Shown one piece after another: positions 28,189 through 57,915 of a DNA stretch of 62,694 nucleotides. The notes under the pieces are model-generated. The model searched no databases and was not told where the DNA came from. It saw only the letters and a list, made by a program, of their open reading frames with translations. Each line of letters starts with the position of its first letter. The first letter of the stretch is position 1. Position numbers and translations under genes: made by a program. This DNA comes from Phycisphaerae bacterium (lineage in GTDB: Bacteria > Planctomycetota > Phycisphaerae > UBA1845): contig JAZGDL010000332.1 of the NCBI GenBank assembly GCA_036477795.1, positions 1-62,694 of the forward strand. The letters run 5' to 3'.

Positions 28189-29913
28189 ATGAAAGGGCTG
28201 CACGCTCCCCTTCGGGTCGCCGCTAAACTCAGTGCTCTGGTGGTGATCGCCTGCGCCCCCCACCTGGGGCGAGCACAGGAGACACCTCCGCCTGAGAACG
28301 AGGAGACCGTCCAAGCGGGCAAGATCATCTATGAGATGCGCTGCGCAGCGTGTCACGGGCTGGAGGGGGACGGCCAAGGCCTGGCGGCGCCCCACATGCT
28401 CCCACAGCCTCGCGACTTCACGGACATCGTCTATAAGCTCCGCAGCACGGCCTCGGGGGAGCGGCCCCTTGAAATCGACCTGTTCCGGACGGTCAGCCAG
28501 GGGGTCCCCGGAACGCCCATGACCTCTTGGCAGGAGATTCTCTCGGAGCGGCAGCGCTGGCAGGTGGTGCACTACATCAAGACGTTCGCGGCGGAGGATT
28601 GGGCGGAGGAGCTGCCCGAGGACGTGGTCATTAAGCTTCCCGACTGGGAAGGGGTGGGGGGTGTCGCACGCGACACCGCAAAACGGGGAGATGATAGGAC
28701 GCTGGCGCGCGGCAAGAAGCTGTATGAAGTTCTCAAGTGCGGGGAGTGCCACGGGGACGGAGGCAAAGGTAACGGACCCAGCGCCAAGACGGTGCAAGAC
28801 GAGTTCGGCAACCCGATGTGGCCGGCCGACCTGACACGTCCCGACCTGTTCCGCGGTGGGAGCGGGATCCAGGACATCGCGCGGGCCTTTATCACGGGCC
28901 TGGGCACTACGCCCATGCCCTCCTATGACGACTATTTCACGCTGTTCAGCGAGAGCGAAGACCTGCCGGAAGACCAGGTAATCCTGCACGTTCCCCGCGA
29001 TACCAACGCCCTGGCGCTGGCACACTATGTCCTGAGCCTGGGCGCGAATCAGAGCCCCAAGCGCCAGCGCCGGGAGGAACAGCAGATCCTGGCGAGCTAC
29101 ACCGACGGAGAGATTCCGGACGATCCGGATTCTCCAGAGTGGGACAAGACCCAGGGCGTGATCATGAAGCTGTCGGCCCAGTTGACTGTAGCACCGAGAT
29201 GGCAGTTCGCCAACGTCGATCGCCTCCTGGTGGATGCTCTGTACAACGACGAGGAGCTCGGCATCCTCATCCAGTGGGACGACCGCACCGAAGACCGCGA
29301 GCACGAGGAGGACGACTACAAATTCGAGGCCCGCTCCAAGTCGGTCGCCCTCCCGACGCGGAACGACCTCGCAGAGCTGAGGCAGAAGGCGTTCGCTGAC
29401 GCGCTATCGATCCAGTTTCCCACCGGGACTGGAGAGGGGGCGAAGCGGCCCTTCTTCGCGCTGGGCGAGCCCGAGGCGCCGGTGGAGAGTTGGCGCTGGC
29501 AAGCCAGCCCGCTGGTCCGGGCGCTGGCAAACCAGCCTGCTGGTCGGGATGGCGAGAGATTTACGGCGAAGGGCTTTCATCTTCCGCCGGAGAACGTGGA
29601 GGAACTCTTCACGAACGCGAAATACGACGACGGCCGCTGGAAGGTCGTGTTCAAGGTCGCGATCGCGGAGGATAAGAGGTTTACGCCGGGGCAATACCTG
29701 CCGATCGCGTTCGCGGCGTGGGACGGCTCGAATGGCGAGAGTGGCACGCGGTGCTCGATCTCCTCGTGGTATTGGTTCCTCTTGAAACCCCGGGGAAGTG
29801 CTGCGCCCTACGCCTACGCCCTGTTGGCCTTCGTGATGATTGGTCTCGGCGAGTTCTTACTGATCAAGAGATTGAGAGAGAACCAACAAGATCCGGCCAT
29901 GCAGATTATCTAG
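28189..29913 (+). CDS. Diheme cytochrome c fused to an EbdC/NxrC-like heme b (DOMON-like) domain, C-terminal anchor (set 1)
   Basis: CAACH and CGECH; PRDFT..YKLRST; QWDDRT, DALSIQFP, AFAAWDGSNGE; C-terminal helix. Confidence 0.85.
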   Translation: MKGLHAPLRVAAKLSALVVIACAPHLGRAQETPPPENEETVQAGKIIYEMRCAACHGLEGDGQGLAAPHMLPQPRDFTDIVYKLRSTASGERPLEIDLFRTVSQGVPGTPMTSWQEILSERQRWQVVHYIKTFAAEDWAEELPEDVVIKLPDWEGVGGVARDTAKRGDDRTLARGKKLYEVLKCGECHGDGGKGNGPSAKTVQDEFGNPMWPADLTRPDLFRGGSGIQDIARAFITGLGTTPMPSYDDYFTLFSESEDLPEDQVILHVPRDTNALALAHYVLSLGANQSPKRQRREEQQILASYTDGEIPDDPDSPEWDKTQGVIMKLSAQLTVAPRWQFANVDRLLVDALYNDEELGILIQWDDRTEDREHEEDDYKFEARSKSVALPTRNDLAELRQKAFADALSIQFPTGTGEGAKRPFFALGEPEAPVESWRWQASPLVRALANQPAGRDGERFTAKGFHLPPENVEELFTNAKYDDGRWKVVFKVAIAEDKRFTPGQYLPIAFAAWDGSNGESGTRCSISSWYWFLLKPRGSAAPYAYALLAFVMIGLGEFLLIKRLRENQQDPAMQII

Positions 29914-29939: not shown

Positions 29940-30959
29940 ATGAAGCTAAGAACATTTTTTGCCGTCCCAGTCCCGATGTACATCGGGATGATCGCGGTCC
30001 TGGGAGGATGCGTTGCAGTATCCGGCGCGCCCGGCGAACAGAAAGGTGTCGCACGCGACACCGCTAAGCGAAGAGATGTCGCACGCGACACCTTGGAACA
30101 TTCCGGCGCGCAATCCGCAATCCGCAATCCGCAATCCTCAATCCCCAATCCCCAATCCCCAATCCGCAATAGGATTGAGAGGTTGCACTGGGAAGATGCG
30201 ATCGCCATTAAGACCCCTGTTTCCTATGATCTGGTGGAGCTCGGTCGCAGGACGTACAACACGCGTTGTCTTATCTGCCACGGACGGGAAGGGCACGGGG
30301 ACGGGTCGGCAGCGAACTACCTCGACACCAAACCGAGGGATTTCACCAAGGCCATCTTCAAGTATCGCACTACGCCCCAGGGATCTTTCCCGCGCGACGA
30401 GGACCTCTTCCGATCCATCAGCGTCGGCTTCCCCATCTACGGCATGCCCTCCTTCCACTATCTCTCCGCCCGCCAGCGGTGGGGCCTGGTCTACTACGTG
30501 GAGAAGCTCTGTGAGGCAGGTTTCCGAAAGAGCCTGGAAGACGACGGGGACTCCGACCCTGACGAGATCAAGGAGATCCTCGACGAGAGGCTCACGCCGG
30601 AAAAGCCCCTCGACGTGGGCAACGCGCCGGAATGGAACGACGACGCCATCGCGCGAGGCAAGACGGTCTACCAGGAGCTCCAGTGCGCCACCTGTCACGG
30701 TGACAGGGGCATGGGCGACGGGCCTTCCGCCAATGATCAGACGGACGTATGGGGCAACGAGCTCACACCCGTGCCCTTCGCGCTGAACCCGTACTTCATG
30801 AAGGCTGGTGGTCGGCCGCGGGACATCGTTCGGGTGCTCATGACCGGCGTGGGCGGAACGGGCATGCCCCGGTTCGAAACGCAGAATCAGGACGATTACT
30901 GGAAACTCGCTTACTACGTCCTGCAACTCGCCGACGAGCGCTCCGAAGAGAACCAGTAA
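29940..30959 (+). CDS. Diheme cytochrome c
   Basis: CLICH and CATCH; PRDFT..FKYRTT; GMPSF and GMPRF distal Met. Confidence 0.88.
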   Translation: MKLRTFFAVPVPMYIGMIAVLGGCVAVSGAPGEQKGVARDTAKRRDVARDTLEHSGAQSAIRNPQSSIPNPQSPIRNRIERLHWEDAIAIKTPVSYDLVELGRRTYNTRCLICHGREGHGDGSAANYLDTKPRDFTKAIFKYRTTPQGSFPRDEDLFRSISVGFPIYGMPSFHYLSARQRWGLVYYVEKLCEAGFRKSLEDDGDSDPDEIKEILDERLTPEKPLDVGNAPEWNDDAIARGKTVYQELQCATCHGDRGMGDGPSANDQTDVWGNELTPVPFALNPYFMKAGGRPRDIVRVLMTGVGGTGMPRFETQNQDDYWKLAYYVLQLADERSEENQ

Positions 30960-30980
30960 ATGTTCTGGAGAATAATAAGG

Positions 30981-31724
30981 ATGAAAAGCATGAAGAGCCA
31001 TGCCGTAATCGGAGTCGTGGCCTTGTTCGCCGGGGCGCTGAGCGTCTCGTACGGCCAGCAGAACACGGAACCGGATAAGGATTTCGCCACCATCACAGGC
31101 AAGATCAGGGTCACAGGAGACGAGGTCCCCGGGCCCGAGAAGAAGCCCATCAACAAGGATCCGGAGGTCTGCGGCAAGGGACAAAGGGATATCCACTGGT
31201 ACAAGGTGGTCGACGGTCGCATCGACGAAGCCATCGTGTTCCTGAATGGAGACTTTGACGGGGCGAGCTGGACCGGCGCCGAAGCCTCTGCCAAGCTCGT
31301 CCAAGAGGGTTGCTTCTTTAAGCCCTACGTCGATATTTGGAAGAGGGGCGCGGAGGTCACCATCATCTCCAAGGACGCCGCCGCCCACAACATCCACACG
31401 TATGAGCGGATCGGTGAAGCCCGTCGCGAGCTCTTTAACTTCAACCAGCCCAATAAGGACGTGAGGAAGGTGGTGATCAAACCGCGGCGGAGCCAGTTCA
31501 TCGAACTGACCTGCGACAACCACGACTTCATGGCCGGCTGGCGGTTTGTGGCCAAGAACCCCTACTGCACGGTGGCGCGCGGCGGCACGTTCACACTCAA
31601 GGTTCCCCCGGGGAGCCATACCCTGAAGGTATGGCATCCCATGATGGGCGTTCTGGAGGAGGAGATCGAGGTCAAGGCGGGGCAGAAGATGACCGTGGAT
31701 TTCGAGTTCGAGTACGAAGAATAG
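30981..31724 (+). CDS. Exported cupredoxin-like protein, paralog 3
   Basis: QEGCFFKPY, AHNIH, CDNHDFM, NPYCTV; signal peptide. Confidence 0.85.
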   Translation: MKSMKSHAVIGVVALFAGALSVSYGQQNTEPDKDFATITGKIRVTGDEVPGPEKKPINKDPEVCGKGQRDIHWYKVVDGRIDEAIVFLNGDFDGASWTGAEASAKLVQEGCFFKPYVDIWKRGAEVTIISKDAAAHNIHTYERIGEARRELFNFNQPNKDVRKVVIKPRRSQFIELTCDNHDFMAGWRFVAKNPYCTVARGGTFTLKVPPGSHTLKVWHPMMGVLEEEIEVKAGQKMTVDFEFEYEE

Positions 31725-31796
31725 GATGATGAAGAAAGGCACGTAGGCACGAAGGCACGAAGTAGGATCATGAAGAAACGTACGAAAAGTAGGCGC

Positions 31797-34022
31797 ATGA
31801 AGGAACTCCTGTCCCCGCGCTGGCGCTTGGGGCTCGGAATTCTGCTACAGGTTGTTCTGGCCGGTGGTGTCGCTCCCCAGGCGCGGGGCGACGATGCGAA
31901 AATGGTGGAACTGGGGAGGATGCTCTTCTTCGAGAACCGCCTCTCGGGCGACGACGGATTCTCCTGCGCTAAGTGCCACGATCCCGAGAAGGCCTTCACC
32001 GACGGGCTGGCCCTTTCGAAAGGCTATCCGGGAACCATGTATTTCCGGAACACCAAGACCGTGATGAACGTCGGCGAGATGGAGTCCCTGTACTGGGACG
32101 GGAGACTCTCCGGCAAGGACCTCCCCACACTCGTGCGCGACCACATCGCGGAATCGCACTTCATGAACACCGACGGCCGGCTCCTCAGCGAGCGGCTCCG
32201 GCAGGTTCCCTATTACGAGAGGACGTTCCGAGAGGTGTTCCAGACGGAGCCGCGCTACGGCGGTATCCTCAAGGCGGTGGCAGCGTTCCTGCGCACGCTC
32301 AACTCCGAGAACGTGCCCTTTGATCGGTTCCTTGACGGGGACCGGAGCGCCATCTCCGAAACCGCGAAGAAGGGCTACGAGCTTTTTACCGGCAAGGCCG
32401 GCTGCGCAAACTGTCACAAAAGCCCACGGGTTGCAACCCGTGGGCGTTCGGAGTTGCTGACCGACGGCAAGTTCCACAACACCGGCGTCCCGATGAACGA
32501 TGAAATCTTCGCAGAGCCGATGCGACACATCGTCTTCAGGAGGTTTTTCAAGACCTTCGGTGTGGCGGGCTACGGCGATCTTGATGAGGACGTGGGACGG
32601 TACGCCGTGACCAAGAACGCCGCGGACCGTGGCGCTTTTCTCACCCCGAGTCTGAGAGAGGTAAGCCGGACGGCGCCCTACATGCACAACGGGATGCTCA
32701 AGACCCTCACCGACGTCGTGGACTTCTACAACCGCGGCGGCGGGAAAGCCCACGGATTGGAATCCGTGGGCTTGAAGGCGCTGGGACTCACGAAGCAGGA
32801 GAAGGAGGCCCTGGTCGAGTTCCTCAAGACGCTGAGCGGGGACAAACTGGTGGTGGAGGTTCCCAAGCGGCTCGAATACGAACTGCGCCCGCTTCCTACG
32901 TTCCATGCTCCGCCCATCGAAGACGAGGGCGGCGACATCGGGACGATCGTCGACTTCCGGTCGGTTCCTCCGATCGGGGCGCTGCCCGAGCCGCCCATCC
33001 CGCCGGACAATCCTGTAACCGAGGAGAAGGTCGAACTGGGAAAGTTACTCTTTTTCGACTCGCGTTTAGCTGGCGACGCATCCAACTCCTGCGCCTCCTG
33101 CCACGATCCGAAACTGGGCTGGGGCGATGGGATCGACCTGTCGCGCGGCTATCCGGGGACCAAGCACTGGCGAAACGGGAACACGGTGATCAACTCCGCC
33201 TACTTCAAGAAGCTCTTCTGGGCCGGCTCGGTGACCAGCTTGGAGAAGCAGGCCAACAGCGCCATCACCGGCAACGTGGCCGGCAACGGCGATCCCATGA
33301 TGATCGAGGAGCGCTTAGCGCAGATTCCGGAGTACGTGGAACGGTTCAAGAAGGTCTTCGGCACGGAGCGGCCGCTCTACGGGGACGTCCTGAAGGCCAT
33401 CTCCACGTTCGAGCGGAAGATGGTCATCTCCCGCAACACGCGTTTCGACCGCTACGCGCGGGGCGAGAGGACAGCCCTGAGCGCGTCGGCCAAGCGGGGT
33501 CTGGACCTCTTCCAGGGCAAGGCGCGGTGCATCCTGTGCCACAACGGTCCGAACTTCACCGACGAGGACTACCACAACCTTGGCGTTGGGGAGAACGAGG
33601 CCTTTGCCCAAGACGTTCAGAGGCAGATCACCCTCCGCTTCGAGTATTTCGCGAAGGGCGTACCGGAGCGTTACTACCACGAGGCCCGATGGGACCTGGG
33701 CCTGTTCTACCGGACAAAGCATCCTCGCGACATGTGCAAGTTCCGCACGCCTCACCTGCGCGAGCTGAAGTGGACGGTCCCGTTCATGCACAACGGGGTG
33801 TTCTACACGCTGGAGGAGGTGGTGGACTTCTACGACCGGGGAGGCGACGAGTCACCCGGCAAGAAGGACCCGCTGATAAAGCCTCTGAACCTGACCAAGA
33901 AGGAAAAGAAGGATCTCATCAAGTTCCTGGAAAGCCTCTCCAGCAAGAAGAAGCCGCTCCAAATCAGACCACCCGTTCTTCCGGAGTACGCGGTGATGAT
34001 ACCGAAAGGGCTAGACAAATGA
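31797..34022 (+). CDS. Fused tandem diheme cytochrome c peroxidase/MauG protein (IdrP1-P2-like)
   Basis: Two CcP units: LGRMLFF..CAKCH..CANCH..TAPYMHNG and LGKLLFFD..CASCH..CILCH..VPFMHNG; an alternative start lies at 31770. Confidence 0.9.
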   Translation: MKELLSPRWRLGLGILLQVVLAGGVAPQARGDDAKMVELGRMLFFENRLSGDDGFSCAKCHDPEKAFTDGLALSKGYPGTMYFRNTKTVMNVGEMESLYWDGRLSGKDLPTLVRDHIAESHFMNTDGRLLSERLRQVPYYERTFREVFQTEPRYGGILKAVAAFLRTLNSENVPFDRFLDGDRSAISETAKKGYELFTGKAGCANCHKSPRVATRGRSELLTDGKFHNTGVPMNDEIFAEPMRHIVFRRFFKTFGVAGYGDLDEDVGRYAVTKNAADRGAFLTPSLREVSRTAPYMHNGMLKTLTDVVDFYNRGGGKAHGLESVGLKALGLTKQEKEALVEFLKTLSGDKLVVEVPKRLEYELRPLPTFHAPPIEDEGGDIGTIVDFRSVPPIGALPEPPIPPDNPVTEEKVELGKLLFFDSRLAGDASNSCASCHDPKLGWGDGIDLSRGYPGTKHWRNGNTVINSAYFKKLFWAGSVTSLEKQANSAITGNVAGNGDPMMIEERLAQIPEYVERFKKVFGTERPLYGDVLKAISTFERKMVISRNTRFDRYARGERTALSASAKRGLDLFQGKARCILCHNGPNFTDEDYHNLGVGENEAFAQDVQRQITLRFEYFAKGVPERYYHEARWDLGLFYRTKHPRDMCKFRTPHLRELKWTVPFMHNGVFYTLEEVVDFYDRGGDESPGKKDPLIKPLNLTKKEKKDLIKFLESLSSKKKPLQIRPPVLPEYAVMIPKGLDK

Positions 34023-34600
34023 GCAAGACAAACGAATCCGAGCCCCAAGCGCCAGCGCGGGGAATGGAAACCCCGACCTGCACCTCTCGGCGTACCTTCC
34101 TGCTGGCCGGCGGGACGGTGGTGGCCGGGACGGCCCTGGCGACCGTGTTCCCGGGCATCACCTTTGCCGACGACCGGGACACGGTGTTCAAGGCGGCAAA
34201 GTACCCGAGGAAATGGGTGGCAGACGCGAACAAGCTCGTCGAGGGCAAGCCCGTGCGGTTCTTCTATCCCTACGAGGAGCCGCACTGTTCGAGCTCTATC
34301 GTGAAACTGGGAACGAAGGCGGGCGGCGGCGTTGGGGCTGGAAAGGACATTGTCGCGTTCAACACGATGTGCCCCCACATGGGCGGCACGCTCGATGGGC
34401 AATACTGTCACCAGGTGAAGGTTCAGGGCCCCTGTCCCATCCATCTTTCGACGTACGACCTGACGCGGCACGGAATGACCATCGCCGGTCACGCCACCGA
34501 ACCTCTTCCGCAGGTCGTCCTGGAGGAGAAAGGCGGACAGATCTACGCGGTCGGCATGCTTGGACTTATCTACGGCTACGCGAGTCACCTCGCGCGCTAA
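34019..34600 (+). CDS. idrB: Rieske [2Fe-2S] small subunit of the AioB/IdrB family, Tat signal
   Basis: SRRTFL twin-arginine motif; GGGVG..DIVAFNTMCPHMG and CPIHLSTYD..GHATEPLPQV. Confidence 0.85.
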   Translation: MSKTNESEPQAPARGMETPTCTSRRTFLLAGGTVVAGTALATVFPGITFADDRDTVFKAAKYPRKWVADANKLVEGKPVRFFYPYEEPHCSSSIVKLGTKAGGGVGAGKDIVAFNTMCPHMGGTLDGQYCHQVKVQGPCPIHLSTYDLTRHGMTIAGHATEPLPQVVLEEKGGQIYAVGMLGLIYGYASHLAR

Positions 34601-34619
34601 TAACAGCAAGGAGTTGGCA

Positions 34620-37268
34620 ATGTCCCAGGACTATAGGATAGATAGGGTTCCCATCCCACCCAAAGATGCAAAGGTGTTCCCGACCTGCTGCGACTACTGC
34701 ATCGTCGCCTGCGGGTACAACGCCTACGTGTGGCCGGTGGGCCGGGAAGGCGGAGAGAAGGCGTCCGAGAACGCCTTCAACGTGGACTATCCCTCACCCG
34801 CGCTGAGCGGCCGCTGGGCCAGCCCCAACCAGCACAACATCGTGATGCGCGAGGGCAAGAAGCACCACGTACTGGTCGTTCCCGACGGCGACGCAGTGGC
34901 GGTCAACCGCGGCGGAAACCACAGCATCCGCGGCGGCTGCATCGCCAGAAAGTGCTACACGCCCGACGGCCCCACGAAGGTCCGTCTTCACTATCCGATG
35001 ATGCGAATCAACGGAAAGCTCGAGCGGGTCTCGTGGGACACTGCCCTTTCCGTCATGGCGGGAATCTCCAAGCACGTGGTTGCCAAGTACGGCGAGATCG
35101 CCTGGGGGATGAAGACGTTCTCCTATCAGTTCTTTGAGAACACCTACGCGATCTCCAAGATCGCCTTCCTCTCGATGAACACGCCGGCGTATGCGCCCCA
35201 CGACAAGCCGGGGCCCGGCAACGACACCGCGGGCATCGACGACGCGGGGATCAAGACCTTCAGCGCCTCCTACGAGGACTGGTCGTTGGCCGACGTGATC
35301 TACTGCTCCGGAACCGACCCCTACGAGACCAAGACGGTCCTGTTCACCGAATGGTGGATGAAGGGCTCCCCCAACAAGCTCATCTTTGCTCTCCCGCGGA
35401 GGACGACCGGCGTCGCATTCGCGGAGAAAAACGGCGGGCTGTGGCTCGACGTCATTCCCGGGAGCGACACCATCCTGCATCTGGCGATTGCCCGAATCAT
35501 CCTTGAGAACGGCTGGGAGGACAAGGAGTTCATCGAGAAGCACATCGCGTCGAAGTGGGACATCTACTCCGGCTTCGGGCGCGGCACCCGTAACACGCCC
35601 TGGCAGTGGAGAACAACCTGGGGCAAGCTTGGTACCGACTTTGCCGGGTACAAGAAGTGGCTGCTGAGCTACAAGCCCGCGGAGTTGGACGAGGCGGTCA
35701 AAGTCACCGGCGTATCCGCTGAGAAGATCAAGAAGACGGCCGAGTTGCTGGCGAAGCCGATCGACGGGAAACGTCCGAAGGCATCGTTCGCCTTCGAAAA
35801 GGGCTGCTACTGGAGCAACAACTACCTGAACACGGCTTCACTCGCTTCCCTCGCGTTGATTTGCGGAGCGGGGAATCGGCCGGGGCAGGTAGTGTCGCGG
35901 CTGGGCGGCCACCAGAGAGGCTGGGCATCCAAGGCCGCCGGCTATCCGCGCATCAAGAGCCCCGAGAAGTTTCCGGGGCGGCGTAAGAAGGAGATCGATC
36001 TGGACCGTTGGGTTGAATCGGGCAACCTCCGATTCGCCTGGGTCATCGGGACGACCTGGGTGCAGGCGATGGCCGCCTCCCAGGAACTCGCCAAGGCCTT
36101 CATGCGCATGACGCGGGAGAACCCGCACCAGATCACCAGCGAGAACCCCGCGCTGGCGCTTGGGGCTCTGAAGAAGCGCGTCGACAGCGGCGGCATGGTC
36201 GTCGTCGACCAGGACATCTACCTGCGCGACCCGATCGGGAAGGAAATCGCGGATATTGTCTTTCCCGCCGCCACCTGGGGAGAAGAGGACTTCACCCGGG
36301 CGAACGGGGAGCGGCGACTGCGCATGTACTCCAAGTTCTACGATCCGCCCGGCGAGGCCAAGCCCGACTGGTGGATCATCGCGCAGTTCGCCAAGAAGAT
36401 GGGGTTCGAGGGCTACGACTGGAAGACGTCCAACGACGTCTTTGAGGAAGGCGCCCGATTCTCACGGGGTGGTCTGTTGGACTATTTTCCTCTGGTGTGG
36501 AAAGCGTGGAAAGACAAGGTTCCCGCCCACGAGGTGCTCCGGAAGATGGGGTCCACGGGCCTCCAGTGCCCCATCCGGTACGTTAAGGGGAAGCTGGTGG
36601 GGACCAAGCGACTGCATGACTCTACGGCCGACTTCGGAACGCCCGAAGGACCCACTGTCCACAAGAAATGGCTCTACAACTTCAATACCCAGTCGGGCAA
36701 CGCGATCCTACACAAGAGCCCCTGGGAGTTTTTCAGCGACTACTACGAGAGAATCACCCCGACGGGCGACGAACTGTGGGTTACCAACGGCCGGATCAAC
36801 GAGATCTGGCAGAGCGTCTTCGACGACGTTCACAAGGCGTACATCATGGATCGGTGGCCGTCCAACTGGGTGGAAATCCACCCGGACGACGCTCAGAAGC
36901 GCGGCATTGAAAGCGGGGACGAGGTGGTCGTCGAGAACGACGACGTCCTGGTGCAGACCGGCGGCTTCGTCGGGGTCGAAATGGACGACCTCTCCTACAC
37001 GGCTCTGGAAAAGGCCGGTCACATCCGGATCGGGAAAGGCGCGTTCCGGGGAATCGCCATGGTCAGTCCGGACGTCAAGAAGGGGGTCTTGTTCACCTAC
37101 TTCATGTGGCCGTCGGAGCCGGTCAACTCCGTCGTCCATCGCGTGGCCGATCCGATGACAAACCGGTACCGCTTCAAGCTCGGCAAGGGAAGAATCAGAA
37201 AGACCGGTGAGTCTCCCTACAAGAAGGACTTCAGCAAACTCACCTTTGCGCCCAGGACCGTTCTCTAG
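34620..37268 (+). CDS. idrA: Molybdopterin oxidoreductase large subunit, AioA/IdrA family (iodate reductase-like rather than canonical arsenite oxidase)
   Basis: CDYCIVACGY [3Fe-4S] motif plus HSIRGG; HDKP in place of AioA HNRPAYNSE; EKGCYWSNNY; GGHQRG; adjacent to Rieske and CcP genes. Confidence 0.82.
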   Translation: MSQDYRIDRVPIPPKDAKVFPTCCDYCIVACGYNAYVWPVGREGGEKASENAFNVDYPSPALSGRWASPNQHNIVMREGKKHHVLVVPDGDAVAVNRGGNHSIRGGCIARKCYTPDGPTKVRLHYPMMRINGKLERVSWDTALSVMAGISKHVVAKYGEIAWGMKTFSYQFFENTYAISKIAFLSMNTPAYAPHDKPGPGNDTAGIDDAGIKTFSASYEDWSLADVIYCSGTDPYETKTVLFTEWWMKGSPNKLIFALPRRTTGVAFAEKNGGLWLDVIPGSDTILHLAIARIILENGWEDKEFIEKHIASKWDIYSGFGRGTRNTPWQWRTTWGKLGTDFAGYKKWLLSYKPAELDEAVKVTGVSAEKIKKTAELLAKPIDGKRPKASFAFEKGCYWSNNYLNTASLASLALICGAGNRPGQVVSRLGGHQRGWASKAAGYPRIKSPEKFPGRRKKEIDLDRWVESGNLRFAWVIGTTWVQAMAASQELAKAFMRMTRENPHQITSENPALALGALKKRVDSGGMVVVDQDIYLRDPIGKEIADIVFPAATWGEEDFTRANGERRLRMYSKFYDPPGEAKPDWWIIAQFAKKMGFEGYDWKTSNDVFEEGARFSRGGLLDYFPLVWKAWKDKVPAHEVLRKMGSTGLQCPIRYVKGKLVGTKRLHDSTADFGTPEGPTVHKKWLYNFNTQSGNAILHKSPWEFFSDYYERITPTGDELWVTNGRINEIWQSVFDDVHKAYIMDRWPSNWVEIHPDDAQKRGIESGDEVVVENDDVLVQTGGFVGVEMDDLSYTALEKAGHIRIGKGAFRGIAMVSPDVKKGVLFTYFMWPSEPVNSVVHRVADPMTNRYRFKLGKGRIRKTGESPYKKDFSKLTFAPRTVL

Positions 37269-37388: not shown

Positions 37389-39548
37389 ATGCTTGACACG
37401 GCACTGTCTTCCGTCCCGACGTACATTGGGATCGCCCAAGCGGGCGTACCGTACAGGACCTTCTTCGGTCTGGATCCCCGTCTCACCGTCTGGATCATCG
37501 CCCAGCTTCACCTCATGTTCGCGGCATTCGTGCTCGCCGTTCCGATCTTCGCGTCCATCGTCGAGGTCGTCGGGGTGCGGGCCAAGGAGCCCGAGACGCG
37601 AGAGCGGTACGACAAGCTAGCCTACGAGTTCGTCAAGCTGCTTTCCGCGGCCTTCGCGACCACCGCCGCGCTCGGCGGGTTCCTGGCGTTCGTGCTCTTC
37701 TCGACCTACCCGAAATTCATGGCCCACCTGACCGACACCTTTCACCCGACGTTCTACATTTACGGCATGCTGTTCTTCGCGGAAAGCTTCACGCTCTACT
37801 CTTACTACTATTCATGGAACCGCCTCCAGGGCATCTCCAAGAACATCATCCTACGCCGCGCCGGGGGTGCGATCTTCTTGATCACCCTGGCGTATCTGCT
37901 GGGGGCGTGGATGGGGATCTTCCCCGTGATCCGGTTTAGCGGCGACCCGAAGGGGAGCGCGGGGTTCCTCCACTGGACGATCTTTGCGATCCTCGGTCTC
38001 TGCATCGTGGGCCTCGGGGTATTGTGCATCGGGTACGGACGGAAGGGATTCCACATCTACCTGGGGATCCTGCTCAACATCTTCGGCACGGTGATCATGT
38101 TGATCGCCAATTCCTGGGCGACTTACATGATGAGCCCGCCGGGCCTCGCGGAAGGCGCCGCAGGACCGCTTGAATCGCACTGGGACAAGACGGACTACAT
38201 CGGCCCGCTCTCGGACGCTTTCTTCAACCACCTGTGGATGCCCCTCAACGTCCACCGCTTCCTCGCCAACATCGCGTTCGGCGGCGCCATCTGCGGCGCC
38301 TATGCAGCCGTCAAGTTCCTCGGGGCCCGCTCGAAGGAAGATAGGGCCCACTACGACTGGATGGGATACGTCGGGAACTTCATCGCCATCATGTCGCTCA
38401 TCCCCCTCCCCTTCGCGGGCTACTACCTTGGCCGCGAGATCTACTCCTTTAACCCGACAATGGGACAGGACATGATGGGCGGGACGTTCTCCTGGACGTT
38501 CATCCTTCAGGCGGTCTTCGTGGGCACGCTCTTCATCGGAGGCAACTACTACATCTGGTCGGGAATGAGAAGGATCCCCGGCGGCGAACGTTATGAGAAG
38601 TTCGTACCGTGGATGTTGGGCGTCCTTTTCATCTGCTTCGGAGTCTGGCTCACACCGCACAACCTGCCGCTGGGAGGTCTGGAGAAAAAGTTCGGCCTCA
38701 TGCCGGCCAAGAACGCCGTGATCCAGTTGATGATCATCACGACGTTCCTGGGCTTCCTTCTCTACCGCAGGGCGAACAAGAAAAAGGAAACGGACTGGAA
38801 GGAGAACGGCATTACGGCCTACCTCGCCACCGGGATCTCGGTCGCGGTGGCCGTGCTCATCGTCCTCATGTACGCGTCCTCTGGCGACCTCTCCGCCGCG
38901 CACCCCGAGTACGGGAAGTTCGTCGTGAAAGAGATGCTCGTGGGGCCGGTAGAGATCAATCTGGATGGGAAGGTGACCTACGGTGCCACGCTGAGAGCGA
39001 CGCTCTACTTCGCCGCGTTCTTGTACGTCTTCGCGGCGGTCCTGGCATTCGTCAACCGCGGAAAGCTCGGGCAGGTCATTCTGCTGGGTGGGATCGGGTT
39101 CACGACAAGCCTCTGGCTCTTCCAGCACGGCTTCACCATCATGGAGAAGGCCAATCCGCTGGTCCGGCACGTCGCCGTCTGCCAAGTGCTGATGATCTTG
39201 GGGGCGTTTATCGTCTGCATGACTATCGATATCTTCTTGTTCAGAAAATCCGAGTCCCTGGGGAAGATCCAGTGGGGCAAGATGCACGGCCGGAGCCAGT
39301 TCGCGCTCATTCTTCTCTGCACCTTTTTTGTGATGAACATGGGACTGATGGGATTCATCCGCTCGGGTCTTAGGAAGGAGTGGCATGTCGTCTCGGTGCT
39401 GAAGGACACTTCCGAGTCCGCATCCACCCCGAGCAACCTGACGATGGCCGTCATGGTCACGGCCATCACGATCACGTTCCTGTCCACGGTTTCCTTCGTC
39501 TTCTGGATCGCTTCGCTGGCCGCGCCGAAGAAGGAGGCGGTGCTGTGA
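37389..39548 (+). CDS. Cytochrome bd subunit I-like membrane protein, copy 1
   Basis: QLHLMFAAFVL, HRFLANIAFGG, YDWMGYVGNF, WLTPH, MGFIRSG; many TM helices. Confidence 0.85.
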   Translation: MLDTALSSVPTYIGIAQAGVPYRTFFGLDPRLTVWIIAQLHLMFAAFVLAVPIFASIVEVVGVRAKEPETRERYDKLAYEFVKLLSAAFATTAALGGFLAFVLFSTYPKFMAHLTDTFHPTFYIYGMLFFAESFTLYSYYYSWNRLQGISKNIILRRAGGAIFLITLAYLLGAWMGIFPVIRFSGDPKGSAGFLHWTIFAILGLCIVGLGVLCIGYGRKGFHIYLGILLNIFGTVIMLIANSWATYMMSPPGLAEGAAGPLESHWDKTDYIGPLSDAFFNHLWMPLNVHRFLANIAFGGAICGAYAAVKFLGARSKEDRAHYDWMGYVGNFIAIMSLIPLPFAGYYLGREIYSFNPTMGQDMMGGTFSWTFILQAVFVGTLFIGGNYYIWSGMRRIPGGERYEKFVPWMLGVLFICFGVWLTPHNLPLGGLEKKFGLMPAKNAVIQLMIITTFLGFLLYRRANKKKETDWKENGITAYLATGISVAVAVLIVLMYASSGDLSAAHPEYGKFVVKEMLVGPVEINLDGKVTYGATLRATLYFAAFLYVFAAVLAFVNRGKLGQVILLGGIGFTTSLWLFQHGFTIMEKANPLVRHVAVCQVLMILGAFIVCMTIDIFLFRKSESLGKIQWGKMHGRSQFALILLCTFFVMNMGLMGFIRSGLRKEWHVVSVLKDTSESASTPSNLTMAVMVTAITITFLSTVSFVFWIASLAAPKKEAVL

Positions 39549-40893: not shown

Positions 40894-41805
40894 GTGAACA
40901 AACCCAAAGGGACATTCCTAAAGGCCGTCATCTTCCTGGTCTGCTTCTACCTGGGTTTGAAGATCATCCTTCCGTATGTCGCCGCGTGGTTGGCCGCCAA
41001 GGGATGGTTCGAGCTTCGCGAAGGGCTCCCCACCTCCGGCAAGGAGGTCACGATTTACTTCACGCTGGCGTGTCTGGCGATCTTCGCCTACGTCAGCTAC
41101 AGCGAGGAGCGCTGGCGGGAGTTCAAGAGGCCCATCATCGGGCTTCTGGAAAGGAAGACTCTCCGGCGCACGGCCGCACTGATCCTGTTCCCGCTGGTTT
41201 GCGGCGGGCTCGTGTTCTGGGACATGACCGCCGAGGCTGGCGCGAGCGCTTTCGTGGCGATCAAGCACCCTACTCCGCCGGACCGGTTCTCGAAAATGAA
41301 GAATCCCTTCCGGAACCCCACGCCCGAGTTGCTCGATGCCTTCGAAACGGAGGTACGGAAAGGAAAGAACAAGAAAAAGGACACCACCGAAGAAGTCCTG
41401 ATCGAGTACATCGAGGCGTTTAGCGGCGACCCGAAGGGAAGCGCGTTCACCGGCCCCCTGCGCGCCAAGGCGTTCGAGCGCAAGGTGATCGAGGAAGGAC
41501 GGATCCTCTTCGTAAAGAACTGCCGCCCATGCCACGGTACCAAGGCGATGGGTGACGGCCCCATGGCACGGGGCCTGCTCCGCGAGCCGGCCGACTTCAC
41601 CGGCGTCGAGACGATTGCGACGCTGGTGGAGGGCGCCGTGTTCTGGCGGGTCAAGATGGGAGGGATCGGACTGCCCCACGAGGGAGGACCGTGGGAGTCC
41701 GCCATGCCGCCGTGGGGAGAGGAAGACCTCACCGACGATGAGATTTGGAAGATCATCATGGCCGAATACGACATCGCGGGGAACAGGCCAAGGGAACCGG
41801 AGTAG
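40894..41805 (+). CDS. Membrane-anchored monoheme cytochrome c (set 2)
   Basis: Three TM helices; CRPCHG; VFWRVKMGGIGLP..PWESAMPPW; paralog of 27258. Confidence 0.88.
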   Translation: MNKPKGTFLKAVIFLVCFYLGLKIILPYVAAWLAAKGWFELREGLPTSGKEVTIYFTLACLAIFAYVSYSEERWREFKRPIIGLLERKTLRRTAALILFPLVCGGLVFWDMTAEAGASAFVAIKHPTPPDRFSKMKNPFRNPTPELLDAFETEVRKGKNKKKDTTEEVLIEYIEAFSGDPKGSAFTGPLRAKAFERKVIEEGRILFVKNCRPCHGTKAMGDGPMARGLLREPADFTGVETIATLVEGAVFWRVKMGGIGLPHEGGPWESAMPPWGEEDLTDDEIWKIIMAEYDIAGNRPREPE

Positions 41806-41818
41806 ATTGAGTAGGGCA

Positions 41819-43702
41819 ATGATGACACCCACCTTAGCGACAATCCTCTTCCCCCTTCGTGCCTTCCGCTACGAAGACGCGCTCCCCTTCGGGTCGCCGC
41901 TAAACTCACCCCTCTCTTCCCTTCGTCCCTTCGTCCCTTCGTCCCTTCGTCCCTTCCTTCTTCTGTTCGTGCTCTTGACTATCAGGATCCCATGCGTGGG
42001 CGCCGCGGAACTGCATGCTCCGGGCTGGATGGAAATCCCGGTCCCCGAGCGCCGTCCGGAACCGACGGAAGAGAACCTCCTTGAGGGGAAACGGATCTAC
42101 AACTTCCGCTGCAGTCCTTGCCACGGCGTGAAAGGGGACGGGAATGGACCAGTGGCCAAGACCCTTGAACCCCGCCCCCGCGACTTCACGAACGGGAACT
42201 TCCGATTCCGCACCACCAAAACCGGCGAGGTGCCCAAGGATGAGGACATGTTCCGGACCATCACCCGCGGAATCCCCGGAACGGCCATGCCGTCGTGGGC
42301 GCCCCTGTCGGCGGATGATCGGTGGAAAGTGATTTACTATGTGAAGAAGATCAGCGGATGGTTCGACGACGAGGAATTCAGCCCCTACCGGGAGGAGGCA
42401 GCCCTTAAGCTGGGGAATCCGCCGCCGCGCACGGAGGAAATAGTCGCCGAAGGGGAGAAGCTCTTCAAGGAAGAGGGCGCCAACTGTATCGTGTGCCACG
42501 GGATCAACGGGCGGGGGAATGGTACCGGTCCCGATGCCCAGAAGAAGAACGCCAAACGGGAGCGGCTCTGGCCGAGAGATCTGACCAAGTCCTGGCGTTA
42601 CAAGAACGGTTCCCGCGTCGAGGACATCTTCCGAACGCTGACCGGAGGACTAACCGGGACCCCCATGCCCTCAAGTCTCGAGTCCCTCCACAAGACCGAC
42701 CCAGCCCAAGACGAGCACGCCCGGTGGGCCATCGCCTATTTCGTCGAGAGTATCTTCGAGTTTAGCGGCGACCCGAAGAGGAGCGCGTTCCCTCCGCAGA
42801 AACGCATTCTCGAAGTGGTCAAGATCGACGGCGAGCTGCCGACCGACCCCAAGGATCCCGCCTGGGAGCAATCGGACGAGATCGCCATCGTTCTGACGGG
42901 GCAAGTGACCTTCCGGCCGCGGTGGCAGACGCCGGCCATCGACTTCATACGGGTGCGGGCGATGTATAACAACGAGAACATTGCGTTCCGGCTGGTCTAC
43001 AACGACCGCACCCATAGTACGGTCCATGAGAGCCCGGAGGTCTGGACGACCGAGGACACCTATCCGGAACTGGACGTGATGAAGTTCCCCTTCGAGCAGT
43101 CCACCTATCGCGATGCAGTGGCCATCCAGTTCCCGGTCAAGGACTCCGAGGGCGCCCAGAGGCCTTACTTCATCTACGGAAGCCAGGCAAGCCCCGTGCA
43201 CCTTCTCAGATACGAGGCCGACAAAGGTGTGGGACCCAAAGGTGTGGGACCCAAAGGTGTGGGACCGACTTTCCAGTCGGTCAGCGACAGGCTGGAAAGC
43301 CTGTCCCATAACGGGGTCGTTGAATACAACGCCAGGGGGCGGAAGAAGCTCAAGGCTCAGCCCGACGAGGAGCAGCAGGCCCGGGGAACGGGCGTTTTCG
43401 ATGACGGTCAGTGGCAGGTTGTGTTTCAGCGTCCCCTCGTGGGAGGCAAGGGCGACGCGAAGATGGCTCCGGGCGCCTACATCCCATTCACCCTGATGGC
43501 GTGGGATGGCGGAAACGGCGAGAGCGGCCTGCAGCAATCCGTCTCGTCCTGGTACAGCCTGAAGCTGGTGACGCCGATTTCGGCGCGGGTTTACATCGGC
43601 GTGCTGATCGGGATCCTTCTTGCCACCCTCACCGAGCTTTACGCCCTGTTCCGGGTGAAGAGAGCGGGCCGATTGGCAATACCAGCCGGAGAGACCCTAT
43701 GA
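41819..43702 (+). CDS. Diheme cytochrome c + EbdC/NxrC-like heme b domain, C-terminal anchor (set 2)
   Basis: CSPCH and CIVCH; YNDRT, DAVAIQFP, MAWDGGNGE; paralog of 28189. Confidence 0.85.
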   Translation: MMTPTLATILFPLRAFRYEDALPFGSPLNSPLSSLRPFVPSSLRPFLLLFVLLTIRIPCVGAAELHAPGWMEIPVPERRPEPTEENLLEGKRIYNFRCSPCHGVKGDGNGPVAKTLEPRPRDFTNGNFRFRTTKTGEVPKDEDMFRTITRGIPGTAMPSWAPLSADDRWKVIYYVKKISGWFDDEEFSPYREEAALKLGNPPPRTEEIVAEGEKLFKEEGANCIVCHGINGRGNGTGPDAQKKNAKRERLWPRDLTKSWRYKNGSRVEDIFRTLTGGLTGTPMPSSLESLHKTDPAQDEHARWAIAYFVESIFEFSGDPKRSAFPPQKRILEVVKIDGELPTDPKDPAWEQSDEIAIVLTGQVTFRPRWQTPAIDFIRVRAMYNNENIAFRLVYNDRTHSTVHESPEVWTTEDTYPELDVMKFPFEQSTYRDAVAIQFPVKDSEGAQRPYFIYGSQASPVHLLRYEADKGVGPKGVGPKGVGPTFQSVSDRLESLSHNGVVEYNARGRKKLKAQPDEEQQARGTGVFDDGQWQVVFQRPLVGGKGDAKMAPGAYIPFTLMAWDGGNGESGLQQSVSSWYSLKLVTPISARVYIGVLIGILLATLTELYALFRVKRAGRLAIPAGETL

Positions 43703-57538: not shown

Positions 57539-57543
57539 TCGGG

Positions 57544-57915
57544 TTACCCCGCTTTCTTGATCTTGCAGCAACCAGGTGCGCCTTTCACCAGCCCGCACTT
57601 AGCGCAGGTTGCCTGCCCGGGCCGGCAGCACTTCGCGCTGCCTTTAATGTGGCCGCAATGCGCGCACAGGTAAGCCGGCTTGCTCGATCCTTTCGTGATT
57701 TTGCAGCAACCCGGCGAGCCTTTCGCCAGCCCGCACTTCGAACAAACTGCTTGCCCGGGTTTGCAGCACGAGGCGGTTCCCTTGATCTGACCGCACCCCG
57801 TACAAAGTGCCACTTTGCCAGGCGCCGAAGGCACCTTCTGCGTGGTCTTACATCCCGCCAGCGTCCCCACGGCGACAAACCCGACCGCCAAAGCCAGTCT
57901 TGCAAATGCTCTCAT
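57544..57915 (-). CDS. Cys-rich lipoprotein with four CxxCGxxKGxxxCC repeats
   Basis: LAGC lipobox; GAGGAG upstream; 16 Cys in four regular units. Confidence 0.75.
   Translation of the reverse strand: MRAFARLALAVGFVAVGTLAGCKTTQKVPSAPGKVALCTGCGQIKGTASCCKPGQAVCSKCGLAKGSPGCCKITKGSSKPAYLCAHCGHIKGSAKCCRPGQATCAKCGLVKGAPGCCKIKKAG

What the first reader, a model, noticed from the sequence alone, without database searches (positions are those of the whole stretch)
34620..37268. Active-site motifs say this is not a canonical arsenite oxidase
Seen: CDYCIVAC, YAPHDKPGPGNDTAG, FEKGCYWSNNY and RLGGHQRG. Known, from memory: AioA has CHFCIVGC, HNRPAYNSE, YEKGIIWGNDNY and GGHQEG. The substrate-funnel substitutions and the adjacent peroxidase point to the IdrA/Aio-like clade. 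No ars resistance genes or chlorite dismutase are visible in the window. Automated annotation would probably mislabel it aioA.
Basis: partly seen in the sequence, partly recalled or inferred. Interest (0 to 1): 0.7.

Follow-up and report, generated by a model that had tools for sequence, protein, structure and literature searches.

The report
Iodate reductase mislabelled as arsenite oxidase
This gene is the molybdenum subunit of a bacterial iodate-respiring enzyme that annotation pipelines call arsenite oxidase; the enzyme type is already known, but here it sits inside a set of membrane and haem genes otherwise known from nitrite oxidisers.

Summary
The reading holds: it belongs to the IdrA (iodate reductase) clade, not to AioA. 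It is 58% identical over its full length to IdrA of Denitromonas iodatirespirans IR-12, and 28-31% to plasmid AioA. A tree places it with IdrA, and an AU test rejects a clade with AioA (p 7.5e-5). An HMM of eight proteobacterial IdrA scores 1352 bits; an AioA HMM scores 514. All 14 clade-diagnostic columns carry the IdrA residue. The idrP2-idrP1-idrB-idrA gene order is kept, with the two peroxidases fused. NCBIfam's AioA model passes it (474.5 bits, cut-off 359; true AioA about 1480), so the predicted mislabelling is real. One correction: three of the four recalled AioA active-site residues are unchanged and the fourth is Glu to Asp. The telling changes lie beside them.

Iodate turnover is inferred; this subclade is untested. 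This scan has found idr clusters before in at least 13 other genomes.

Less ordinary: the idr genes lie within two modules of bd-like oxidase, NxrC-like haem protein and cytochromes c. A conserved cupredoxin sits upstream and an idr-type sensor kinase downstream. The same linkage recurs in four other genomes.

The parts
34620..37268 (+). idrA: Mo-bisPGD catalytic subunit with an N-terminal [3Fe-4S] motif (882 aa). This is the finding.
   Evidence: Pfam Rieske_3, Molybdopterin and Molydop_binding domains. 58% identical to Denitromonas IR-12 IdrA. Tree and AU test. HMM scores 1351.6 against 513.6 bits. IdrA residue at 14 of 14 diagnostic columns.
34019..34600 (+). idrB: Rieske [2Fe-2S] small subunit with a twin-arginine signal (SRRTFLL). 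An alternative start is the ATG near 34065.
   Evidence: PF00355. TIGR02694 98.4 bits against a 95.65 cut-off; AioB of NT-26 scores 231.7 and Azonexus IdrB 115.7. CPHMGG and CPIH motifs read. 40-60% identical to the gene upstream of idrA in the loci.
31770..34022 (+). Fused idrP2-idrP1: two di-haem cytochrome c peroxidase modules in one 750-aa protein, with 4 CXXCH motifs, one N-terminal signal and a Pro-rich linker.
   Evidence: Two PF03150 domains. CXXCH at residues 66, 212, 441 and 587. The N half matches the first and the C half the second peroxidase gene of Denitromonas, Azonexus and the other loci. The same fusion occurs in 11 of 65 assessable loci.
30960..31724 (+). Secreted cupredoxin (type-1 copper site) with a C-terminal beta-sandwich domain. 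Candidate electron donor.
   Evidence: A homologue lies upstream of idrP2 in 25 of 80 loci. His143, Cys185, His188 and Met191 are invariant in 26 of 26 sequences. AlphaFold2 mean pLDDT 83.9. Best Foldseek matches are amicyanin and other cupredoxins, probability 1.00. No sequence-level Pfam or PDB hit for the copper domain.
29940..30959 (+). Di-haem cytochrome c.
   Evidence: Two PF13442/PF00034 hits. CXXCH at residues 110 and 249. Homologues lie just downstream of idrA in L003, L004, L007, G015, G152 and G350.
28189..29913 (+). Di-haem cytochrome c fused to an NxrC/EbdC-like haem b (EB_dh) domain, with a C-terminal membrane anchor.
   Evidence: PF00034 and PF09459. TIGR03477 99.9 bits, below its cut-off. 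One C-terminal hydrophobic segment.
27258..28187 (+). Membrane-anchored mono-haem cytochrome c with three hydrophobic segments. Paralogue of 40894-41805.
   Evidence: PF13442. CXXCH at residue 205 and three hydrophobic segments. Start position is uncertain.
37389..39548 (+). Cytochrome bd-like membrane protein (719 aa, about 13-14 helices), probably of the OR-N kind.
   Evidence: PF01654 matches only residues 31-148. PDB CydA 9r2g matches at E 0.0014 over the first helices. 13 hydrophobic segments. Family description taken from passages of bioRxiv 10.1101/2021.01.16.426971 and PMC3578206.
39723..40850 (+). Di-haem cytochrome c. The ORF opens at 39549; the true start is uncertain.
   Evidence: PF00034. 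CXXCH at residues 137 and 331 of the ORF. Candidate starts listed.
40894..41805 (+). Membrane-anchored mono-haem cytochrome c.
   Evidence: PF13442. CXXCH at residue 210 and three hydrophobic segments.
41819..43702 (+). Second di-haem cytochrome c plus EB_dh (NxrC-like) protein.
   Evidence: PF00034 and PF09459. Start position.
43699..45759 (+). Second bd-like membrane protein. Its ATG overlaps the preceding stop codon.
   Evidence: PF01654 over ORF residues 144-384. 58% identical to the first bd-like protein over its core. 14 hydrophobic segments. Start position.
55112..57598 (-). dCache/HAMP sensor histidine kinase of the type found beside idr clusters.
   Evidence: Pfam domains. The sensor part is 31-34% identical to kinases next to idr in Azonexus (E 1e-44), Denitromonas, L007 and L011. 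Only the kinase core matches AioS, at E 1e-6.
53748..55115 (-). Sigma-54-dependent response regulator, partner of the kinase.
   Evidence: Pfam domains. 45% identical to the Azonexus idr-linked regulator, against 35% to AioR.

Best explanation
The gene encodes IdrA, the catalytic subunit of a periplasmic dissimilatory iodate reductase (IdrAB). It is not an arsenite oxidase.

Shown here:
- It belongs to the IdrA clade.
- It keeps the idrP2-idrP1-idrB-idrA gene order.
- It keeps the C-X2-C-X3-C [3Fe-4S] motif.
- The small subunit has Rieske motifs and a Tat signal.
- The peroxidases carry four haem c sites.

Inferred from what is established for AioAB and IdrAB:
- IdrB carries IdrA across the membrane by the Tat route.
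- Electrons pass from c-type cytochromes, or from the cupredoxin encoded upstream, to the Rieske cluster. From there they go to the [3Fe-4S] cluster, then to Mo-bisPGD, which reduces iodate to hypoiodous acid.
- The fused IdrP2-P1 removes peroxide or another oxidant formed on the way.
- Iodide then forms chemically. No chlorite dismutase was found in this genome.

More tentative: in this organism the electrons come through the co-encoded membrane module of bd-like protein, NxrC-like haem b/c protein and anchored cytochrome c.
For: - Identity: 58% over residues 8-882 to IdrA of Denitromonas iodatirespirans IR-12, the strain studied in PMC8692401 (passages). 56% to Azonexus hydrophilus NCP973, an isolate shown to reduce iodate (PMC13455634: abstract in the listing, section 7).
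- Tree of 87 rows: the window lies in a 79-row clade with Denitromonas IdrA, stem length 1.02, SH-aLRT 100.
- Careful tree of 28 rows: AioA forms one clade at 100/100. Forcing the window into it costs 133 lnL; p-AU 7.5e-5.
- HMMs: 1351.6 bits against eight proteobacterial IdrA, 513.6 bits against six AioA. NT-26 AioA gives the reverse, 334.9 and 1455.7.
- TIGR02693: window 474.5, Denitromonas 438.7, Azonexus 425.6. NT-26 AioA 1499.5, Thermus AioA 1467.7.
- Diagnostic columns: 14 of 14 carry the IdrA residue.
- Synteny: P2-like, P1-like, Rieske and IdrA lie in this order in 64 of 80 genome loci and in both IdrA-type plasmid loci.
- The sensor kinase and regulator are of the idr-linked type.
- This is the only AioA/IdrA-type gene in the genome.
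Against: - No activity data exist for this protein or for its subclade. Its nearest neighbours are MAG sequences from several phyla outside the proteobacterial clade. All tested enzymes that I saw in print are proteobacterial or SAR324.
- The funnel loop differs from the tested enzymes: HDKPGPGNDT here, HDKASATNDA in Denitromonas. The position after EKG is Cys here, Asn in most.
- The loci were collected with the CDYC pattern and a second pattern (AW[GA]MKT[YF]S). Intermediate AioA-like clades, such as the 'unknown clade' of PMC8692401, are therefore not in my trees.
- The MAG has 5.8% estimated contamination, so the host of the contig is not certain. A same-family genome does carry the same gene set.
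Confidence: 0.8

Rival explanations
1. It is a divergent arsenite oxidase (AioA) that oxidises arsenite and passes electrons to a cupredoxin or cytochrome c, as the automatic name says.
For: - It passes the curated cut-off of the AioA equivalog TIGR02693 (474.5 against 359.05).
- The only solved relatives above 120 bits are AioA.
- His194, Arg427 and His431 are kept.
- A cupredoxin is encoded upstream, and azurin-type proteins are known AioAB partners (recalled).
Against: - The score equals that of proven IdrA and is one third of that of real AioA.
- The AU test rejects a clade with AioA.
- None of the 14 diagnostic columns carries the AioA residue.
- No aioX-type gene was seen in the window, and the kinase is of the idr type rather than the AioS type.
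- Two peroxidase modules lie directly upstream, which PMC8692401 reports as missing from aio loci.
Confidence: 0.03
2. It is a true member of the IdrA clade, but in this untested, non-proteobacterial subclade the physiological substrate or role differs. It could act on another high-potential oxyanion. It could also serve detoxification under oxic conditions rather than respiration.
For: - The funnel loop differs from the tested enzymes.
- The cluster is joined to bd-like proteins that some authors regard as oxygen reductases.
- idr clusters also occur in aerobic bacteria whose physiological use of them is unclear (abstract of PMC11445184).
Against: - The 14 columns that separate the clade from AioA are shared with the tested enzymes.
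- The peroxidase pair, the Rieske subunit and the idr-type sensor kinase are all kept.
- idr clusters taken from MAGs outside the isolates' clade worked when expressed in another host (PMC13455634, section 7).
Confidence: 0.15

Closest known systems
IdrABP1P2 dissimilatory iodate reductase of Denitromonas iodatirespirans IR-12, Pseudomonas sp. SCT and Azonexus hydrophilus NCP973
   Same: Same clade (58% and 56% identity), same gene order P2-P1-B-A, [3Fe-4S] motif, Tat-signal Rieske subunit, four haem c sites in the peroxidases, and an idr-type kinase with a sigma-54 regulator.
   Different: - The two peroxidases are one polypeptide here. That is also so in 11 of 65 other loci.
- A cupredoxin gene precedes them.
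- A bd-like oxidase gene takes the place of the small cytochrome c and moaA genes seen downstream of idrA in Azonexus.
- The kinase and regulator lie 8 kb away on the other strand.
- The funnel loop is PGPG rather than ASAT.
Arsenite oxidase AioAB (Pseudorhizobium banfieldiae NT-26, PDB 4aay; Alcaligenes faecalis, PDB 1g8k)
   Same: Same fold family and the same cofactor set. The aligned position of the usual Mo ligand is Gly here and Ala in AioA, so no protein ligand is expected. His, Arg and His near the Mo site are conserved.
   Different: 28-31% identity, a separate clade, 14 fixed differences, no peroxidases in aio loci, and aioXSR regulation. The reaction runs the other way, as an oxidation.
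Accessory gene set of periplasmic nitrite oxidoreductase clusters in Kuenenia, Nitrospira and Nitrospina (alternative NxrC, mono- and di-haem cytochromes c, cupredoxins, 14-helix bd-like oxidase)
   Same: The window encodes the same kinds of protein around its Mo enzyme: NxrC-like EB_dh haem proteins, mono- and di-haem cytochromes c, a cupredoxin, and two bd-like proteins with 13-14 helices. The description is from PMC3578206 (passages).
   Different: The Mo enzyme is IdrAB, not NXR. No NarG/NxrA-type gene passed the cut-off in this genome. I did not test orthology of the individual accessory proteins to the NXR-linked ones.

Membership tests
IdrA (iodate reductase catalytic subunit) | Falls in the clade that holds genetically or physiologically tested IdrA, apart from AioA. 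| tested here: met
   79-row clade with Denitromonas IR-12, SH-aLRT 100. AU test against AioA placement, p 7.5e-5. Caveat: intermediate AioA-like clades were not sampled.
IdrA (iodate reductase catalytic subunit) | Scores higher with an IdrA profile than with an AioA profile.
   1351.6 against 513.6 bits. The IdrA profile was built from eight proteobacterial sequences, without the window or its near kin.
IdrA (iodate reductase catalytic subunit) | Conserved idrP2-idrP1-idrB-idrA neighbourhood. PMC8692401 uses this to delimit the clade. | tested here: met
   Window genes 31770-37268 match this order, with P2 and P1 fused.
IdrA (iodate reductase catalytic subunit) | N-terminal C-X2-C-X3-C [3Fe-4S] motif and no amino-acid ligand to Mo. 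| tested here: met
   C24-D-Y-C27-I-V-A-C31 is present. The position aligned with Ala of AioA's HNRPA is Gly198. Absence of a ligand is inferred from the alignment, not from a structure.
IdrA (iodate reductase catalytic subunit) | Reduces iodate. | not testable with these tools
   No assay is possible. No RNA run was listed either.
AioA (arsenite oxidase large subunit) | Passes the NCBIfam equivalog TIGR02693. | tested here: inconclusive
   474.5 bits is above the 359.05 cut-off. But proven IdrA score 425.6-438.7, and real AioA score 1467.7-1499.5. The cut-off does not separate the two enzymes.
AioA (arsenite oxidase large subunit) | Residues fixed in AioA: Asn-Arg after the active-site His, Glu of NSE, Ile of EKGxIW, Glu of GGHQEG, and nine others. 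| tested here: not met
   The window carries the AioA residue at 0 of the 14 columns that are invariant in six AioA and differ from the IdrA clade.
AioA (arsenite oxidase large subunit) | aio-type neighbourhood (aioX, aioS, aioR, cytochrome c, arsenic or phosphate genes) without peroxidases. | tested here: not met
   NT-26 locus for comparison. The window has peroxidases, and its kinase has an idr-type sensor domain.
OR-N type cytochrome bd-like proteins (neighbours 37389-39548 and 43699-45759) | About 14 helices, CydA-like first four helices only, quinol-binding loop missing, found in operons with other electron donors. | tested here: inconclusive
   13 and 14 hydrophobic segments. The first protein matches Pfam PF01654 and PDB CydA only over its first helices; the second matches PF01654 over the first 240 of 418 profile positions. 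I did not test loss of the Q-loop residue by residue, and the authors' subfamily HMMs were not available.
Cupredoxin, type-1 copper (neighbour 30960-31724) | Cupredoxin fold with a His, Cys, His, Met ligand set. | tested here: met
   Foldseek probability 1.00 to amicyanin and other cupredoxins. His143, Cys185, His188 and Met191 are invariant in 26 of 26 sequences. Copper binding itself was not tested.

The most novel reading that the evidence does not exclude
The bd-like oxidase, NxrC-like haem b/c protein, anchored cytochrome c and cupredoxin set has so far been discussed as an enigmatic companion of nitrite oxidoreductase. It may instead be a general adaptor that connects the quinone pool to high-potential periplasmic molybdoenzymes. 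In this lineage it would be wired to iodate reductase, giving a self-contained quinol:iodate respiratory chain that does not need a bc1 complex. A variant of this reading is that the bd-like proteins reduce oxygen or another oxidant released during iodate reduction.

Support:
- The idr genes lie between the parts of one such module in the window.
- The two gene sets are also neighbours in L011, G015, G152 and G176, in different arrangements.
- Among 40 relatives in the same order, the only genome with the bd-like gene is the only one with idrA.
- No NXR-type gene was found in this genome.

Against:
- Two of four idr-bearing genomes in the phylum sample lack the module.
- 21 of 396 genomes without idr have it.
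- Neighbouring genes alone do not show electron transfer.
Probability: 0.3. Interest if true: 0.6.

Novelty: new member of a known kind. Interest (0 to 1): 0.35.

Why it matters
Practical point. The curated AioA model lets the whole IdrA clade through, so genome surveys count iodate reducers as arsenite oxidisers. The motif scan of one genome per species found 565 relatives, and every source name shown among the 120 listed homologues is arsenite oxidase or arsenate reductase. A separate IdrA model, or a cut-off near 1000 bits, would fix this: real AioA score about 1470-1500, IdrA about 425-475.

Biological point. Untested, non-proteobacterial lineages may take part in iodine cycling.

The neighbourhood gives a second, independent context for the bd-like oxidases, whose function has been called enigmatic since they were found beside nitrite oxidoreductase (PMC3578206). 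That question could be tested by expressing idr genes with and without the module.

Tried and rejected
- Arsenite oxidase: rejected (see rivals).
- Cys396 in EKGCYW as a special ligand: rejected. The position varies among 120 homologues (N 92, I 12, C 7, S 5, L 2, A 2).
- CDYC against CHFC as a diagnostic: only partly useful, because two of six AioA have CQYC.
- Sequence searches for the cupredoxin gene gave nothing meaningful. PDB best E was 0.022, to a designed TIM barrel. Pfam gave only a weak beta-sandwich hit. The fold search was needed.
- Promoter and terminator scan of 26001-46000: counts no higher than in shuffles (3 against 4.1; 19 against 15.6). The single-operon idea therefore rests only on shared strand and short gaps.
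- Expression: no RNA holder was listed. The five DNA holders have small shares of 0.05-0.08, and I did not lay them.
- Taxonomy by RpoB in the protein atlas: uninformative.
- Searches for the recalled AioA residue numbers and for iodate with 'bd-like' found no relevant paper. A search combining iodate, IdrA, cupredoxin, azurin, Planctomycetota and fused listed no paper among its 12 shown rows that holds IdrA together with cupredoxin or Planctomycetota.
- Earlier notes of this scan near this place: none.
Full report
**The observation**

The + strand frame ending at 37268 has an ATG at 34620. A GGAG lies six bases before it, and the stop of the upstream Rieske gene lies 19 bases before it. The product is 882 aa, and homologues cover 98-100% of it.

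I compared the recalled AioA motifs with six AioA from plasmids: NT-26, Thermus, Hydrogenophaga, Acidiphilium, Ralstonia and Acuticoccus. GGHQEG is in 6 of 6, HNRPAYNSE in 5 of 6, CHFCIVGC in 3 of 6, and YEKGIIWGNDNY in 2 of 6.

**What the gene is**

Pfam finds the Rieske_3 ([3Fe-4S]) domain, the molybdopterin domain and the dinucleotide-binding domain.

NCBIfam's AioA equivalog TIGR02693 scores 474.5 bits, above its cut-off of 359.05. NCBI's pipeline uses this library to name proteins, so the gene would be named arsenate reductase (azurin) large subunit. The same model gives:
- 1499.5 to NT-26 AioA and 1467.7 to Thermus AioA
- 438.7 to IdrA of Denitromonas iodatirespirans IR-12 and 425.6 to IdrA of Azonexus hydrophilus NCP973

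RefSeq indeed names the Azonexus gene arsenate reductase. All the names that sources give among the 120 listed homologues are of that kind.

The best solved structures are AioA, at only 281-299 bits. No IdrA structure is in the PDB copy.

A scan of one genome per species used two peptide patterns taken from an alignment of 19 homologues. It found 565 relatives. Among the best 80 is Denitromonas IR-12, 58% identical over residues 8-882. Plasmids show a clear gap: Azonexus 56% and a Vibrio 49.5%, then AioA at 27-32%.

**Tests between IdrA and AioA**

- Tree of 87 rows (quick search, LG+G4). The window lies in a 79-row clade with Denitromonas IdrA. The stem has length 1.02 and SH-aLRT 100. Six AioA form the sister group.
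- Careful tree of 28 rows. The six AioA form one clade at 100/100. Holding the window with them costs 133 log-likelihood units; p-AU 7.5e-5.
- Own profiles. Eight proteobacterial IdrA give the window 1351.6 bits and six AioA give it 513.6. NT-26 AioA gets 334.9 and 1455.7.
- Diagnostic columns. There are 14 columns invariant in the six AioA and at least 95% another residue in the 78 other rows of the IdrA clade. The window has the IdrA residue at 14 of 14.

Rows left out: the divergent Cytobacillus protein L089 and the nitrate reductase L090 were dropped from the column count. Partial loci were not used in trees (83 of 90 loci were full length).

A limit of all this: the loci were collected with CDYC-type patterns. 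AioA-like clades that lie between AioA and IdrA are therefore not sampled.

**A correction to the active-site argument**

The four residues that I recall as lining the Mo site of the A. faecalis enzyme are His195, Glu203, Arg419 and His423. This is recalled; my paper search for these numbers found nothing. They align with His194, Asp202, Arg427 and His431 in the window. Three are kept and one is a conservative change.

What separates the clades are the neighbouring positions, given in NT-26 numbering then window numbering:
- Asn200 to Asp195
- Arg201 to Lys196
- Ile416 to Tyr397
- Glu453 to Arg433

The Cys in EKGCYW is not special. Among 120 homologues the position is N 92, I 12, C 7, S 5, L 2, A 2.

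**Neighbours**

The gene upstream (34019-34600) is a Rieske protein with an SRRTFLL Tat motif and CPHMGG/CPIH motifs.

Before it lies a 750-aa protein (31770-34022) with two di-haem peroxidase domains, four CXXCH motifs and one signal peptide. Its N half matches the first peroxidase gene of other idr loci and its C half the second.

The order P2-like, P1-like, Rieske, IdrA across the 80 genome loci:

| Loci | Pattern |
|---|---|
| 64 | complete order seen |
| 11 | cut by a contig end |
| 4 | Dehalococcoidia loci with only a P1-like gene and no Rieske hit |
| 1 | L043, neither peroxidase nor Rieske |

PMC8692401 (passages read) uses exactly this synteny, and the absence of peroxidases from aio loci, to delimit IdrA.

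The fusion of the two peroxidases is not unique. No stop separates them in 11 of 65 assessable loci.

**A conserved fifth gene**

The gene 30960-31724 has homologues upstream of idrP2 in 25 of 80 loci. His143, Cys185, His188 and Met191 are invariant in 26 of 26 sequences, with C-x2-H-x2-M spacing.

Sequence searches did not name it. An AlphaFold2 model (mean pLDDT 83.9) matches amicyanin and other cupredoxins with Foldseek probability 1.00. It is most likely a blue-copper electron carrier. That fits the azurin-type partners of AioAB, which I recall rather than tested. Earlier notes of this scan also report copper carriers beside idr; they gave me the lead.

**The wider cluster**

From 27.2 to 45.8 kb, twelve genes lie on the + strand with short gaps or overlapping stop and start codons. 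In order they are:
1. anchored mono-haem cytochrome c
2. di-haem c plus NxrC-like EB_dh protein
3. di-haem c
4. cupredoxin
5. idrP2P1
6. idrB
7. idrA
8. bd-like protein
9. di-haem c
10. anchored mono-haem c
11. second di-haem c plus EB_dh protein
12. second bd-like protein

Module 2 has the order anchored c, EB_dh protein, bd-like. In module 1 the idr genes sit between the EB_dh protein and the bd-like protein.

The bd-like proteins have 13-14 hydrophobic segments. The first resembles CydA only in its first helices; the second matches the first 240 of 418 positions of the CydA profile. This matches the OR-N family described in the bd-oxidase preprint (passages). It also matches the 14-helix bd-like oxidase that PMC3578206 (passages) reports in the nitrite oxidoreductase clusters of Kuenenia, Nitrospira and Nitrospina. 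There it sits beside an alternative NxrC, mono- and di-haem cytochromes c and cupredoxins, and its function is called enigmatic.

This genome has no NarG/NxrA-type gene over the cut-off. Both of its bd-like genes are on this contig.

**Is the linkage more than chance?**

- With 8-kb flanks, only L011 (a Rokubacteria MAG) showed a bd-like gene. It lies directly downstream of idrA in the same gene order as the window. L003 and L059 showed only EB_dh-type hits at their edges.
- Among relatives in the same order, idrA was found in 1 of 60 genomes (G015, 71% identical). The bd-like gene was found in 1 of 40, again G015. In G015 the module lies about 7 kb upstream of idrP2 on the same strand, and idrA continues on a second contig.
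- In a sample of 400 genomes of the phylum, idrA was found in four and the bd-like gene in 23, of which 17 belong to one family. Two genomes have both, G152 and G176. In both, a bd-like gene lies 0.4-4.6 kb upstream of idrP2. G350 and G429 have idr without the module in the stretches fetched.

So the module is neither required for idr nor specific to it. Where both occur (the window, G015, G152, G176) they are neighbours, in three different arrangements; L011 shows the same adjacency, though only its locus was examined. Related genomes are not independent, so I give no p-value.

**Regulation**

A dCache/HAMP kinase (55112-57598) and a sigma-54 regulator (53748-55115) lie on the minus strand, 8 kb downstream of the cluster. 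The kinase's sensor part is 31-34% identical to kinases encoded beside idr in Azonexus (E 1e-44), Denitromonas, L007 and L011. Against AioS only the kinase core matches, at E 1e-6. The regulator is 45% identical to the Azonexus one and 35% to AioR.

**Mechanism**

Shown: clade membership, cofactor motifs, signals and gene order.

Inferred from the published models (PMC8692401; PMC10989891):
- IdrAB is exported by the Tat route.
- Electrons run from cytochrome c or the cupredoxin to the Rieske cluster, then the [3Fe-4S] cluster, then Mo.
- Iodate is reduced to hypoiodous acid.
- IdrP2P1 removes peroxide or another oxidant.

No chlorite dismutase family gene was found in the 96%-complete genome. 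This fits the chemical-disproportionation model better than the model that needs a Cld-like enzyme.

**Host**

The window is a whole contig of a 4.9-Mb MAG with 568 contigs, 96% completeness and 5.8% contamination. The idr contig of a genome that the tool calls 'same phylum' (G152:C345) has the same length and gene layout as locus L003, whose title says Planctomycetota. The phylum is therefore probably Planctomycetota. I did not confirm this otherwise; an RpoB look-up was uninformative. The sparse presence of idr among relatives fits gain by transfer, which the papers also propose.

**Novelty**

The enzyme type, its mislabelling and its wide spread are in print. This scan has reported idr clusters in at least 13 other genomes. 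The gene is a new member of a known kind.

In the library searched, I found no paper that links iodate with bd-like oxidases. Among the 12 rows shown for a six-term search, none holds IdrA together with cupredoxin or Planctomycetota. Supplements of the bioRxiv preprint were not open to me and may bear on the subfamily of the bd-like proteins.

Noticed in passing
window 21881, 27227, 28061, 28660, 30045, 30075, 48403, 53700, 56976 (family A); 28203, 37934, 41418, 41878, 42758, 47047 (family B); 29043, 31812, 34037, 48610, 52792 (family C): Three families of short (about 18-30 nt) dispersed repeats occur in both orientations; one is a perfect hairpin. Allowing up to 2 mismatches, the genome holds 122, 25 and 133 copies. 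Several lie in frame inside genes of this cluster or at their 5' ends. One example is an extra stretch of about 20 aa in the cytochrome c at 27258-28187 that its paralogue at 40894-41805 lacks. This recalls palindromic elements that insert into coding sequence.
   Followed up: partly
window 30097-30170 and 39737-39782: Tandem 7-nt repeats (CAATCCG and variants) lie in the 5' parts of the ORFs for two cytochromes c. They read as IRNPQSA repeats if translated. They probably lie upstream of the true start codons.
   Followed up: no
window 1437-3032: A 531-aa ORF with no Pfam hit is built largely of 66-nt (22-aa) tandem repeats: 9-12 copies at 60-78% identity.
   Followed up: no
window 11704-14457: A 917-aa protein has an Endonuclease I domain and six copies of a Cys-rich repeat. 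If translated, the repeat reads roughly DCDDGLFCNG.ETC.
   Followed up: no
window 7106-9685 (-) and 22811-27079: More candidate electron-transfer and envelope genes lie near the cluster: a cytochrome c554-like protein, a 610-aa protein with a plastocyanin/azurin-type copper domain, a Porin_5 porin, and two secreted proteins with CarboxypepD_reg-like beta-sandwich domains.
   Followed up: no
window 46988-49027 and 51770-52996: The short PCP_red domain (protochlorophyllide reductase 57 kD subunit) appears four times in a Usp-domain protein and once at the end of a radical SAM/SPASM protein. Its role here is unknown.
   Followed up: no
L064, L065, L066, L068 (Dehalococcoidia MAGs): In these loci idrA is preceded directly by a single P1-like peroxidase gene. 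There is no Rieske hit and no P2-like hit in the flank. The Rieske subunit may be encoded elsewhere or lost.
   Followed up: no
L002: A contig titled Methanobacteriota archaeon carries a bacterial-type idr cluster whose IdrA is 71% identical to the window's, the closest full-length locus from the genome scan. This may be a binning error or a transfer.
   Followed up: no
L089 (Cytobacillus firmus plasmid): A divergent AioA-like gene sits beside pst, arsR, an arsenic transporter gene and arsC. It scores 436.9 bits on TIGR02693, yet RefSeq calls it only 'molybdopterin-dependent oxidoreductase'. This is the opposite annotation error to the one in the window.
   Followed up: no
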